64,000 bases of DNA, from assembly GCF_009914755.1 (NCBI RefSeq), contig NC_060938.1; one strand, 5' to 3'. A program made the translations under genes and the position numbers. How positions within the stretch are numbered: position 1 is the stretch's first letter; the number at the start of each line of letters is the position of its first letter. This DNA is from the human T2T-CHM13v2.0 reference genome, Homo sapiens. Under the pieces are notes generated by a model that was not told the DNA's origin, did no database searches, and saw nothing but the letters and a program-made list of their open reading frames with translations. Positions 7,220 through 13,475 of the stretch are shown here, in pieces.

Positions 7220-7267
7220 TAAATGAATAAAAAACCCATCAGCCCCACAAAAGTTCCACCAAAATTT
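7220..7267 (-). pseudogene. Micro-NUMT, MT-ND6-like, left piece (7251-7267 duplicated as the L1 TSD)
   Basis: Joined with 13463-13475 it translates on the minus strand to GIVLNFGGTFVGLMGFL, matching recalled mammalian ND6 (GIVLNFGGSFLGLMVFL). Confidence 0.75.
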
Positions 7268-7485
7268 TTTAAAAAATTATTATTATACTTTAAGTTCTAG
7301 GGTACATGTGCACAATGTGCAGGTTTGATACATAGGTATACATGTGCCATGTTGGTTTGCTGCACCCATCAACTCATCATTTACATTAGGTATTTGTCCT
7401 AATGCTATCCCTCCCCCAGCCCCCCAACCCCTGACAGGCCCCAGTGTGTGATGTTCCCCGCCCTGTGTCCAAGTGATCTCATTGT

Positions 7486-10400
7486 TCAATTCCCACCTGT
7501 GAGTGAGAACATGCGGTGTTTGGTTTTCTGTCCTTGTGATAGTTTGGTCAGAATGACGGTTTCCAGCTTCAACCACGTCCCTGCAAAGGACATGAACTCA
7601 TCCCTTTTTATGGCTGCATAGTATTCCATGGTGTATATGTGCCACATTTTCTTAATCCAGTCTATCATTGATGGACATTTGGGTTGGTTCCAAGTCTTTG
7701 CTATTGTGAATAGTGCTGCAATAAACATATGTGTGCATGTGTCTTTATAGTAGCATGATTTATAATCCTTTAGGTATATACCCAGTAACAAGATGGCTGG
7801 GTCAAATGGTAATTCTAGTTCTAGATCCTTGAGGAATCGCCACTGTCTTCCACAATGGTTGAACTAATTTACACTCCCACCAACAGTGTAAAAGCGTTCC
7901 TATTTCTCCACATCCTTTCCAGCATCTCTTGTTTCCTGACTTTTTAATGATTGCCATTCTAACTGGTGTGAGATGGTATCTCACTGTGGTTTTGATTTGC
8001 ATTTCTCTGATGACCAGTGATGATGAGCATTTTTTCATGTATCTGTTGGCTGCATAAATGTCTTCTTCTGAGAAGTGTCTAATTCATATCCTTTGCCCAC
8101 TTTTTCATGAGGTTGTTTTTTTCTTGTAAATTTGTTTGAGTTCTTTGTAGATTCTGGATATTAGCCCTTTGTCGGATGGGTTGATTGCAAAAATTTTCTC
8201 CCATTCTGTAGGTTGCCTGTTCTCTCTGATGGTAGTTTCTTTTGCCATGCAGAAGCTCTTTAGTTTAATTAGATCCCATTTGTCAGTTTTGGCTTTTCTT
8301 GCCATTGCTTTTGGTGTTTTCGTCATGCAGTCCTTGCCCATGCCTGTGTCCTGAATGGTACTGCCTAGGTTTTCTTCTAGGGTTTTTATGGTTTTAGTTC
8401 TAACATGTAAGTCTTTAATCCATCTTGAATTAATTTTTGCATAAGGTATAAGGAAGGGATCCAGTTTCAGCTTTCTACATATGGCTAGCCTGTTTTCCCA
8501 GCGCACCATTTATTAAATAGGGAATCCTTTCCCCATTTCTTGTTTTTGTCAGGTTTGTCAAAGATCAGATGGTTGTAGATGTGTGGTGTTATTTCTGAGG
8601 CCTCTGTTCTGTTCCATTGGTCTATATCTCTGTTTTGGTACCAGTACCATGCTGTTTGGGTTACTGTAGCCTTGTAGTATAGTTTGAAGTCAGGTAGCGT
8701 GATGTCTCCAGCTTTATTCTTTTGGCTTAGGATTGTCTTGGCAATGCAGGCTCTTTTTCGGTTCCATATGAATTTTAAAGTAGTTTTTTCCAATTGTGTG
8801 AAGAAAGTCATCGGTAGCTTGATGGGGATGGCATTGAATCTATAAATTACTTTGGGCAGTATGGCCATTTTCACGATATTGATTCTTCCTATCCATGAGC
8901 ATGGAATATGCTTCCATTTGTTTGTGTCCTCTTTTATTTCCTTGGGCAGTGGTTTGTAGTTCTCCTTGAAGAGGTCCTTCACATTCCTTGTAAGTTTGAT
9001 TCCTAGGTATTTTATTCTCTTTGTAGCAATTGCAAATGGGAGTTCTCTCATGATTTGGCTCTCTGTCTGTTAATGGAGTATAGGAATGCTTGTGATTTTT
9101 GCACATTGATTTTGTATCCTGAGACTTTCCTGAATTTGCTTATCAGTTTAAGGAGATTTTGGGCTGAGACGATGGGGTTTTCTAAATATACAATCATGTC
9201 ATCTGCAAACAGAGACAATTTGACTTCCTCATTTTCTAATTGAATACCCTTTATTTCTTTCTCTTGCCTGACTGCCCTGGTCAGAACTTCCAACACTATG
9301 TTGAACAGGAGTGGTGACAGAGGGCATCCTTGTCTTGTGCCGGTTTTCAAAGGGAATGCTTCCAGTTTTTGCCCATTCAGTATGATATTGGCTGTGGGTT
9401 TGTCATAAATAGTTCTTATTATTTTGAGATACATTCCATCAATACCTAGTTTATTGAGAGTGTTTAGCATGAAGGGCTGTTGAATTCTGTCGAAGGCCTT
9501 TTCTGCATCTATTGAGATAATCATGTGGTTTTTGTCATTAGTTCTGTTTATGTGATGGATTATGTTTATTGATTTGCATATGTTGAACCAGCCTTGCATC
9601 CTAGGGATGAAGCTGACTTGATCATGGTGGATAAACTTTTTGATGTGCTGCTGGATTCGGTTTGCCAGTATTTTATTGAGGATTTTTGCATCAATGTTCA
9701 TCAGGGATACTGGTCTGAAATTCTCTTTTTTTGTTGTGTCTCTGCCAGGCTTTGGTATCAGGATGATGCTGGCCTCATAAAATGCGTTAGGGAGGATTCC
9801 CTCTTTTTCTATTGATTGGAATAGTTTCAGAAGGAATGGTACCAGCTCCTCTTTGTACCTCTGGTAGAATTCAGCTGTGAATCCATCTGGTCCTGGACTT
9901 TTTTTGGTTGGTAGGCTATTACTTACTGCCTCAATTTCAGAGCCTATTATTGGTCTATTCAGAGATTCAAATTCTTCCTGGTTTAGTCTTGGGAGGGTGT
10001 ATGTGTCCAGGAATTTATCCATTTCTTCTAGATTTTCTAGTTTATTTGCGTAGAGGTGTTTATAGTATTCTCTGATGGTAGTTTGTATTTCTGTGGGATC
10101 GGTGCTGATATCCCCTTTATCATTTTTTATTGCATCTATTTGATTCTTCTCTCTTTTCTTCTTTATTAGTCTTGCTAGCCGTACATCTATTTTGTTGATC
10201 TTTTCAAAAAACGAGCTCCTGGATTCATTGGTTTTTTGAAGGGTTTTTTTGTATCTCTATCTCCTTCAGTTCTGCTCCGATTGTAGTTATTTCTTGCCTT
10301 TTGCTAGCTTTCGAATGTGTTTGCTCTTCATTCTCTCGTTCTTTTAATTGTGATGTTAGGGTGTCGATTTTAGATCTTTCCTGCTTTCTCTTGTGGGCAT

Positions 10401-11310
10401 TTAGTGCTATAAATTTCCCTGTACACACCGCTTTAAATGTGTCCCAGAGATTCTGGTATGTTGTGTCTTTGTTCTCATTGGTTTCAAAGAACATCTTTAT
10501 TTCTGCCTTCATTTCGTTATTTACCTAGTAGTCACTCAGGAGCAAGTTGTTCAGTTTCCATGTACTTGTGCAGTTTTGAGTGAGTTTCTTAATCCTGAGT
10601 TCTAATTTGATTGCACTGTGGTCTGAGAGACAGTTTGTTGTGATTTTTGTTCCTTTACATTTGCTGAGGAGTGCTTTACTTCCAACTATGTGGTCAACTA
10701 CAGAATAAGTGTGATGTGGTGCTGAGAAGAATGTATATTCTGTTGATTTAGGATGGAGAGTTCTATAGATGTCTATTAAGTCTGCTTGTTGCAGAGCTGA
10801 GTTCAGGTCCTGGATATGCTTGTTAACCTTCTGTCTCGTTGATCTGTCTAATATTGACAGTGGGGTGTTAAAGTCTCCCATTATTATTTTGTGGGAGTCT
10901 AAGTCTCTTTGTAGGTCTCTAAGGACTTGCTTTATGAATCTGGGTGCTCCTGTATTGGGTGCACATATACTTAGGATACTTAGCTCTTCTTGTTGAATTG
11001 ATCCCTTTACCATTATGTAATGGCCTTCTTTGTCTCTTTTGATCTTTGTTGGTTCAAAGTCTGTTTTATCTGAGACTAGGATTGCAAGCCCTACTTTTTT
11101 TTTTTGCTTTCCATTTGCTTGGTAGATCTTCCTCCATCCCTTTATTTTGAGCCTATGTGCATCTTTGCATGTGAGATGGGTCTCCTGAATACAGCACACT
11201 GATGGATCTTGACTCTTTATCCAATTTGCCAGTCTGTGTCTTTTAATTAGAGCATTTAGTCCATTTACATTTAAGGTTAATATTGTTATATGTGAATTTG
11301 ATCCTATCAT
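7486..11310 (-). pseudogene. L1 ORF2 (endonuclease/reverse transcriptase), broken into several pieces
   Basis: ORF track fragments: EN domain MIGSNSHITILTLNVNGLN at 10525-11310, RT with FADD at 9048-10022, C-terminal fragments down to 7486. Stops and frameshifts lie between them. Confidence 0.95.
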
Positions 11311-11373
11311 TATGATGTTAGCTGGCTACTTTGCCCGTTAATTGATGCAGTTTCTTCATAGCATCAATGGTCT

Positions 11374-12403: not shown

Positions 12404-13007
12404 CTTTGTGGTTTTATCTGCTTTTGGTCTTTGATGTTGGTGACCTACAGATGGGGTTTTGGTGTAGATGACCTTTTTTTTTTTTTTAATTTGGATGCTA
12501 TTCCTTTCTGTTTGTTAGTTTTCCTTCTAACAGTCAGGTCCCTCAGCTGCAGGTCTGTTGGAGTTTGCTGGAGGTCCACTCCAGACCCTGTTTGCCTGGG
12601 TATCACCAGCGGAGGCTGAAGAACAGCAAATATTGCAGAACAGCAAATATTGCTGCCTGGTCCTTCCTCTGGAAGCTTCAACCCAGAGGGGTGGCCACCT
12701 ATATGAGGGGTCTGTGGGTCCCTTCTGGGAGGTGTCTCCCAGTTAGGCTACACAGGGATCAGGGACCCACTTGAGGAGGCAGTCTGTCTGTTCTCAGAGC
12801 TCAAACGCCATGCTGGGAGAACAACTGCTCTTTTCAGAGCTGTCAGACAGGGACATTTAAGTCTGCAGAAGTTGTCTGCTGCCTTTTATTCAGCTATGCC
12901 TTACCCACAGAGGTGGAGTCTAGAGGCAGGAGGCCTCGTTGAGCTGTGGTGGGCTCCACCCAGTTCAAGCTTCCTGGCCGCTTTGTTTACCTACTCAAGC
13001 CTAAGCG

Positions 13008-13202
13008 ATGGTGGATGTCCCTCCCCCAGCCAGGCTGCCACCTTGCAGATCGATCTCAGACTGCTGCACTAACAGTGAGCAAGGCTTTGTGGGCGTGGGA
13101 CCCACCGAGCCAGGAATGGGGGAGAATCACCTTGTCTGCAGGTTGCTAAGACCTTGGGAAAAGTGCAGTATTTGGGCGGGAGTGCCCCGTTTTTCCAGAT
13201 AG
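13008..13202 (+). other. L1 ORF0 homologue (antisense ORF of the L1 5'UTR), open for 64 codons
   Basis: MVDVPPPARLPPCRSISDCC…GVGPTEPG…GVPRFSR aligns with recalled primate ORF0 (MAGAPPPASLPPCSLISDCC…GVGPSEPG…GVTRFSR). Confidence 0.75.
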
Positions 13203-13445
13203 TCTGTCACGGCTTCCCTTGGCTAGGAAAGGGAAATCTCCCAACCCCTTGCACTTCCCGGGTGAGGCGACTCCCTGTCCTGCTTCAGTTCACCCTCCGT
13301 GGGCTGCACCCACTGTCCAACCAGTCCCAGTGAGATGAACCAGGTGCCTCAGTTGGAAATGCAGAAATCACCCGTCTTCTGAGTTGATCACAATGGGAGT
13401 GCAGACTGGAGCTGTTCCTATTCGGCCATCTTGGAACACCCCACC

Positions 13446-13475
13446 AAGTTCCACCAAAATTTAATACAATACCAC
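13446..13475 (-). pseudogene. Micro-NUMT, MT-ND6-like, right piece
   Basis: aagttccaccaaaatttaatacaataccac; continues the piece at 7220-7267. Confidence 0.75.

What the first reader, a model, noticed from the sequence alone, without database searches (positions are those of the whole stretch)
7220..13475. Hidden ~61-bp mitochondrial ND6 fossil captured inside an AluJ and later split by the L1
Seen: the AluJ breaks at …gctggtctt (7219) and resumes at ctcaag… (13476), missing about 11 nt. Removing the L1 and one TSD copy leaves a 61-nt non-Alu insert, taaatgaataaaaaacccatcagccccacaaaagttccaccaaaatttaatacaataccac. Its minus strand reads GIVLNFGGTFVGLMGFL. Recalled, not searched: general mammalian ND6 has GIVLNFGGSFLGLMVFL (14/17 identical) and human ND6 has VIILNFGGGYMGLMVFL (11/17). 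Several nucleotide differences from human mtDNA are synonymous. Inference: an mtDNA fragment patched a double-strand break in the Alu, preserving an ancestral primate ND6 state. Its age is bracketed after the AluJ and before the L1PA5-7 insertion. Split into 48-nt and 30-nt pieces buried in masked repeats, it would probably be missed by standard NUMT scans.
Basis: partly seen in the sequence, partly recalled or inferred. Interest (0 to 1): 0.85.

Follow-up and report, generated by a model that had tools for sequence, protein, structure and literature searches.

The report
Mitochondrial fossil nested in two retrotransposons
A 61-base scrap of an ancient mitochondrial gene (ND6) sits inside an old Alu repeat in a human intron and is split by a full-length LINE-1; it was likely captured while a chromosome break was repaired, is likely functionless, and is missing from the three catalogues of such insertions that could be read.

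Summary
Confirmed. An AluJ-like element (minus strand) breaks at 7219 and resumes at 13476, 11 nt short. Between lie 61 nt of mitochondrial ND6 (about codons 40-60, one base deleted), split by a full-length L1 whose 17-nt target-site duplication is itself ND6 sequence. The rejoined insert matches old nuclear ND6 copies (best 52/61; genome-scale E 6e-7; 0 of 500 shuffles reach its score) but a human-like copy only 42/61. Differences fall at third codon positions (8 of 11, none at second), so it is likely a separate mtDNA capture, not a nuclear duplicate. It places with the main old group of primate NUMTs (95-98% weight), well before the L1. It is absent from three readable catalogues; a human-like bait misses it even when rejoined, so divergence as well as splitting hides it. 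Best mechanism (inferred): end-joining repair of a break in an existing Alu with an mtDNA fragment, then ordinary L1 insertion at an endonuclease site inside that fragment. A new, unusually nested member of a known class, likely neutral. Orthologues in monkeys could not be examined.

The parts
6981..7219 (-). Host Alu, 3' part: decayed A-tail (about 6981-7007), right arm and most of the left arm; AluJ-like
   Evidence: shares diagnostic columns with the J-like rather than the S-like copies aligned (subfamily names recalled)
7220..7250 (-). ND6-derived insert, 3' part in ND6 sense (about codons 51-60), single copy, holds the 1-nt deletion
7251..7267 (-). L1 target-site duplication, copy 1; ND6 sequence (about codons 45-50)
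7268..13445 (-). Full-length L1 (6178 nt), same strand as SLC25A21; short decayed tail at the 7268 end, complete 5' end at 13445; ORF1 and ORF2 broken into pieces
   Evidence: ORF1 domains 11374-12029, endonuclease 10525-11325, reverse transcriptase 9048-10256
13446..13462 (-). L1 target-site duplication, copy 2; ND6 sequence
13463..13475 (-). ND6-derived insert, 5' part in ND6 sense (about codons 40-44); the L1 nick site lies at 13462/13463, one mismatch from the TTTT/AA endonuclease consensus (consensus recalled)
13476..13545 (-). Host Alu, 5' part, resuming 11 nt beyond the break

Best explanation
A 61-nt fragment of mitochondrial ND6 replaces 11 nt of an old Alu and is split by a full-length L1; the fragment was likely ligated as filler into a double-strand break in the already inserted Alu, in an early anthropoid germline, and the L1 likely arrived much later by ordinary target-primed insertion at an endonuclease site inside the fragment. 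Shown: sequence identity, 11-nt loss, 17-nt duplication made of ND6 sequence, L1 later than the insert (the duplication copies insert bases), junction overlap of 0-1 nt. Inferred: end-joining as the capture route, Alu before mtDNA, direct mitochondrial donor, age (before the human-macaque split, likely 35-60 million years; absolute dates recalled), and neutrality.
For: Identity and boundaries. No duplication around the insert itself, 11-nt host deletion and blunt or 1-nt junctions lie within the spectrum reported for NUMT capture: 41 of 90 NUMTs with deletions and 99 of 152 junctions blunt or with 1-nt overlap in PMC2567098 (passages); 27.6% blunt in PMC9630118 (passages). Direct mtDNA donor: 11 differences from the column majority of 32 nuclear ND6 copies fall 3/0/8 on codon positions 1/2/3 (binomial p about 0.011 for the third-position excess), whereas the two closest pairs, taken as nuclear duplicates, differ evenly (10/9/8 and 13/11/9); no sampled copy is closer than 52/61 (39 copies covering at least part of the stretch). 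Age: placement weight 0.95-0.98 on the main old cluster and at most 0.006 on the later ladder towards human; AU test rejects grouping with the hominoid-like copies (p 0.0175); cluster member L027 corresponds by position and mtDNA span to a NUMT that PMC3467031 dates before the human-rhesus split. The insert has Gly41 and Phe50, seen in 0 of 22 living anthropoid ND6 sequences read and in 5 of 5 colugo, lagomorph and squirrel sequences. L1: complete 5' end, 5-6% from its nearest 3' relatives against 22-35% between the host Alu and other Alus. Both junctions and the 48-nt piece are unique in the genome at up to 3 mismatches.
Against: No orthologous site could be seen, so the order Alu then mtDNA is not shown directly. 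An 11-nt deletion is larger than the usual 0-2 nt for NUMT capture, and only 7 of 30 blunt-blunt events had any deletion. The insert is in the same sense as the Alu, as a template switch would also give. Only 61 sites date it: grouping with the broad later clade (p 0.23) or the oldest copies (p 0.35, 0.08) is not rejected, and its terminal branch is long (0.23-0.24 against a median near 0.08). The amino-acid clock has homoplasy: several later NUMTs combine Tyr46 with Phe50 while the nine New World monkey sequences read have Phe46 with Tyr50, so a date before the New World monkey split is likely, not secure. The genome search scored only 40 candidates, so a nuclear donor may be unsampled. A 3-mismatch search would miss paralogues tens of millions of years old.
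Confidence: 0.8

Rival explanations
1. The fragment entered together with the Alu: during Alu reverse transcription the L1 enzyme would switch to a mitochondrial ND6 transcript and back, skipping 11 nt.
For: ND6 sense and Alu sense are the same strand; the donor mtDNA is old, so the gap to AluJ times may be short; 11 nt is a large loss for NUMT end-joining.
Against: Needs two switches with return to the same template and no junction homology (0-1 nt); orientation matches by chance half the time; the Alu base at 7219 is the decayed form of a CpG whose G is among the deleted bases (the site is decayed one way or the other in 8 of 10 other Alus), a weak hint that the Alu aged in the genome before the capture.
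Confidence: 0.08
2. The insert is a secondary copy, templated from another nuclear NUMT during repair rather than taken from mtDNA.
Against: Differences from the closest sampled copies are concentrated at third positions (for example 2/0/7 to L032), unlike nuclear duplicates; none of the sampled copies aligned like the insert, with its deletion and private substitutions together.
Confidence: 0.08
3. The match is chance in AT-rich sequence, or the piece is L1-borne (3' transduction or 5' extra sequence).
For: Short and low in complexity; each half alone is not significant at genome scale (E 0.16 and 6.9 with the best bait); an HMM of 32 copies gives only E 0.0067 at genome scale after rejoining; the left half alone scores E about 2 against the PDB.
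Against: 0 of 500 shuffles; match edges coincide with the Alu break points; the halves are collinear; the only 6 PDB sequences returned at E up to 10 are all ND6; 31 and 13 nt of the insert lie outside the duplication, where L1-carried sequence cannot be, and none of 18 L1 relatives shows it at the end examined.
Confidence: 0.02

Closest known systems
Fixed primate NUMTs of the main old burst (for example numt_127 chr11, numt_364 chr2, numt_123 chr11 in PMC13179385 Supplementary Data 3)
   Same: mtDNA-derived, same ND6 sequence state, same apparent age class, decayed, non-coding.
   Different: 61 nt instead of hundreds to thousands; lies inside an Alu; not catalogued; more third-position change than any of 17 main-cluster copies over the same columns (8 against 1-7, median 2).
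NUMTs lying inside retrotransposons (10 of 557 in PMC3467031, section read)
   Same: A retrotransposon straddles the insertion point.
   Different: Here the NUMT is itself split by a second retrotransposon; it is not among that paper's 7 chr14 rows.
NUMTs split by later retrotransposons (numt_155/156 on chr12; numt_67 on chr10)
   Same: Insertion at a T-rich site within the same short stretch of ND6.
   Different: Those are Alus in longer NUMTs; here a 6-kb L1 hit a 61-nt target and the duplication is 17 of its 61 bases.
NUMT-mediated end-joining repair (PMC2567098; PMC9630118)
   Same: Filler mtDNA, blunt or 1-nt junctions, host deletion.
   Different: Deletion of 11 nt is above the usual 0-2 nt; the event is far older than the species-specific cases studied.

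Membership tests
NUMT | Significant similarity to mtDNA sequence | tested here: met
   E 6e-7 at genome scale with an old ND6 NUMT as bait, 0 of 500 shuffles; ND6 proteins in the PDB.
NUMT | Embedded in nuclear DNA with sharp nuclear junctions | tested here: met
NUMT | Divergence pattern of a mitochondrial coding donor followed by neutral decay | tested here: met
   3/0/8 by codon position plus a 1-nt deletion
NUMT | Meets the catalogue rule (BLASTN of human mtDNA, E at most 1e-4, over 30 bp; PMC13629686 methods) | tested here: not met
   The human-like stand-in L003 gives no hit, split or rejoined. This is a detection threshold, not a biological criterion.
Primary (non-duplicated) NUMT | No paralogue sharing flanks or private changes | tested here: inconclusive
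End-joining filler insertion | No target duplication, little microhomology, host deletion | tested here: met
   pre-insertion state inferred from other Alus, not from an orthologue
End-joining filler insertion | Empty orthologous site in an outgroup | not testable with these tools
   The genome has no relatives in the tool
Canonical L1 target-primed insertion | Target-site duplication, endonuclease consensus site, 3' tail, L1 ORF domains | tested here: met
   17-nt duplication, nick site, decayed tail and complete 5' end, Pfam domains
L1PA5-7 subfamily | Diagnostic positions against subfamily consensus | not testable with these tools
   No repeat library; 5.1-6.4% (3' end, 7 relatives) and 10-11% (5' UTR, 11 relatives) pairwise distance is compatible by recalled values
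AluJ subfamily | Diagnostic positions against subfamily consensus | tested here: inconclusive
   Groups by eye with one of two column patterns among 10 Alus, the one recalled as AluJ; no library check

The most novel reading that the evidence does not exclude
This is an exemplar of a hidden class of old micro-NUMTs inside Alus and other repeats that human-mtDNA BLAST cannot see but that old-NUMT baits plus removal of younger retrotransposons reveal; if they are numerous, NUMT counts are too low, the reported avoidance of retrotransposons by fixed NUMTs is partly an ascertainment effect, and each nested case is a dated sample of extinct anthropoid mtDNA, this one perhaps from a side lineage given its excess of third-position changes.
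Probability: 0.3. Interest if true: 0.62.

Novelty: new member of a known kind. Interest (0 to 1): 0.38.

Why it matters
The locus itself is very likely neutral. Its value is as a three-layer time stamp (Alu, mtDNA, L1) that gives a ready presence/absence marker for primate phylogeny, and as a worked example of how NUMT catalogues miss short, old, split insertions: 12 of 12 other ND6-region copies that I looked up are catalogued and this one is not. It makes a standing claim testable: that fixed NUMTs avoid the inside of retrotransposons (PMC3467031; PMC13179385).

Tried and rejected
Whole-genome scan with old-NUMT baits: not possible, the genome is not available as a file, so the size of any hidden class is open. 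Real human mtDNA was not available; L003, whose ND6 frame is intact and near-human, stood in. L1 3' transduction or 5' extra sequence: rejected by position outside the duplication and by 18 L1 relatives. Source Alu carrying the insert: no second junction at 3 mismatches, weak for old copies. Alu target-site duplication: none convincing. Further mtDNA pieces in the window: with 41 bait segments from the ND5-ND6-CYTB region only the two halves stood out (best E 2e-7 and 1e-5); 14 other bins gave short hits at E 0.002-0.04, not followed up; other mitochondrial genes were not used as bait. Rfam: 0 matches in 64 kb. Tree placement on a particular branch: unsupported. Link to chr10 numt_67, which ends at a similar mtDNA position: 46/61, its alignment end is an Alu insertion; grouping borderline (AU p 0.05). 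Two of 24 anthropoid proteins (Plecturocebus, Cebus) were mis-anchored and dropped; no tarsier or lemur sequence was among the 120 listed of 1430. The PMC10671835 table could not be seen: its archive is cut. Literature searches (listings only unless named) showed no description of this locus; the two papers holding both SLC25A21 and NUMT were seen as listings only.
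Full report
Observation. The window is human chr14 (T2T-CHM13, hub annotation), inside an SLC25A21 intron. A minus-strand Alu runs from about 6981 to 7219, stops, and resumes at 13476-13545. Against 10 other Alus it lacks 11 nt at the break. An exact 17-nt repeat (7251-7267 and 13446-13462) brackets 6178 nt that are a full-length L1: its 5' end matches the 5' ends of 11 relatives, its 3' end those of 7, and ORF1, endonuclease and reverse-transcriptase domains are present in broken frames. 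Removing the L1 and one repeat leaves 61 nt that are not Alu.

Identity. A Pfam ND6 search of the genome returned 21 nuclear matches, 15 fetched; no mitochondrial contig came up, so nuclear copies served as references. The empty site aligned at the same ND6 position in 15 of 15, beginning at the insert edge in 12. A profile of those 15 finds the two halves as the best two hits of the native window, collinear and overlapping by the duplication, and the rejoined piece at E 1.7e-7. Against 32 non-redundant copies the best local score is 73; 0 of 500 dinucleotide shuffles reach it (mean 26.6, maximum 39). With a search space of mtDNA times genome, the best old bait gives E 6e-7 rejoined, 0.16 and 6.9 for the halves; an HMM of the 32 gives a weaker 0.0067. 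A 20-residue translation across the left half returns 6 PDB sequences at E up to 10, all ND6, each at a non-significant E of about 2. The insert spans about human ND6 codons 40-60 and lacks one base in its last third; gap positions from column 43 to 52 score almost equally.

Donor. Best identity is 52/61 to L032; the human-like L003 gives 42/61. Seven further copies gave 42-46/61 and one did not cover the stretch. The 11 differences from the column majority fall 3/0/8 on codon positions 1/2/3 (p about 0.011), while the two closest pairs among the copies, taken as nuclear duplicates, differ evenly. This points to a separate capture from a functioning mitochondrial gene. The 48-nt half and both junctions are unique in the genome at up to 3 mismatches, which excludes only recent duplicates; the DNA search scored 40 candidates.

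Age. The nuclear ND6 copies form a ladder: oldest copies, a main cluster, and a well-supported series leading to human. Placing the insert on each of 68 branches puts 0.95-0.98 of the weight on the main cluster and 0.003-0.006 on the later series; AU tests reject the hominoid-like pair (p 0.0175) and marginally the last three (0.045), but not the broad later clade (0.23) or the oldest copies (0.35; 0.08). One cluster member, L027, matches by position and span a NUMT dated before the human-rhesus split in PMC3467031. The insert encodes Gly41 and Phe50, found in 0 of 22 anthropoid proteins read (2 more dropped as mis-anchored) and in 5 of 5 colugo, lagomorph and squirrel proteins; homoplasy at residues 46 and 50 keeps a date before the New World monkey split likely rather than certain. 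The L1 is much younger than the Alu: 5-6% from its nearest 3' relatives, against 22-35% between the host Alu and others. Subfamily names and absolute ages are recalled; PMC3525338 (passages) puts the L1PA5 to L1PA4 transition at 18-20 million years. The insert's terminal branch is long, with 8 third-position differences against 1-7 (median 2) for 17 main-cluster copies; a side lineage of mtDNA is possible but 61 sites cannot show it.

Mechanism. The duplication consists of insert bases, so the L1 came after the insert (shown). Its nick site is one mismatch from the recalled endonuclease consensus, and Alus have hit the same ND6 stretch in two other NUMTs, so this step is ordinary. The insert has no duplication of its own, 0-1 nt of junction overlap and an 11-nt host deletion, within the range described for end-joining capture of mtDNA (PMC2567098, abstract and passages; PMC9630118, passages), though the deletion is larger than usual. 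I put 0.8 on capture into a break in a pre-existing Alu, 0.08 on a double template switch during Alu insertion, 0.08 on copying from an unsampled nuclear NUMT and 0.02 on chance or L1 carriage.

What is known. Not listed in the CHM13 tables of PMC13629686 (both spreadsheets searched; the only coordinate beginning 3088 is on chr12; its PDF and code archive were not readable), nor in the held part of the PMC13179385 spreadsheet (file cut when stored, but 12 of 12 other ND6-region copies looked up are there), nor among the 7 chr14 rows of PMC3467031. The PMC10671835 table was not visible; PMC13629686 used its BLAST settings. The human-like bait gives no hit even on the rejoined site, so divergence and shortness, together with the split, explain the miss. 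PMC3467031 (sections read) found only 10 of 557 NUMTs inside retrotransposons; PMC13179385 (passages) reports the same depletion for fixed NUMTs. Searches for a description of this locus or of such a triple nesting found none in the listings; the library lacks most subscription journals.

Verdict. Real, correctly read by the first stage, and apparently uncatalogued: a new member of a well-known class with a rare nested anatomy and no sign of function (no Rfam match; frameshifted, intronic). Interest 0.38. The bolder reading, a hidden population of old micro-NUMTs inside repeats, rests on this one case and needs the genome-wide search that could not be run here.

Noticed in passing
L069 (chr10:24,885,934 NUMT) and L070/L078 (chr12:31,124,572 NUMT): In two other nuclear ND6 copies an Alu has inserted into the T-rich run 20-40 nt from where the L1 hit this insert; this ND6 stretch is a recurrent retrotransposon target.
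   Followed up: partly
L003:1453-1980 (chr5:135.45 Mb): A nuclear copy keeps an uninterrupted 175-codon ND6 frame and a 490-codon ND5 frame under the mitochondrial code.
   Followed up: no
window 7268-13445: The full-length L1 lies in the same orientation as SLC25A21 inside an intron; ORF1 and ORF2 are broken, and the tail has decayed to a short T/A run. Any effect on transcription was not examined.
   Followed up: partly
L011, L080, L045, L077-L079 versus the main cluster: The nuclear ND6 copies form a ladder with a long internal branch (0.21) between the oldest copies and the main cluster, a period of mtDNA change with few captured copies among those sampled.
   Followed up: no
P0075, P0110, P0113: Three database proteins labelled Bartonella NADH-quinone oxidoreductase subunit J are 74-75% identical to the primate ND6 query, likely host mitochondrial contamination.
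   Followed up: no
window 7220-13475: The host gene SLC25A21 is recalled to encode a mitochondrial carrier; a mitochondrial fossil in its intron is likely coincidence.
   Followed up: no
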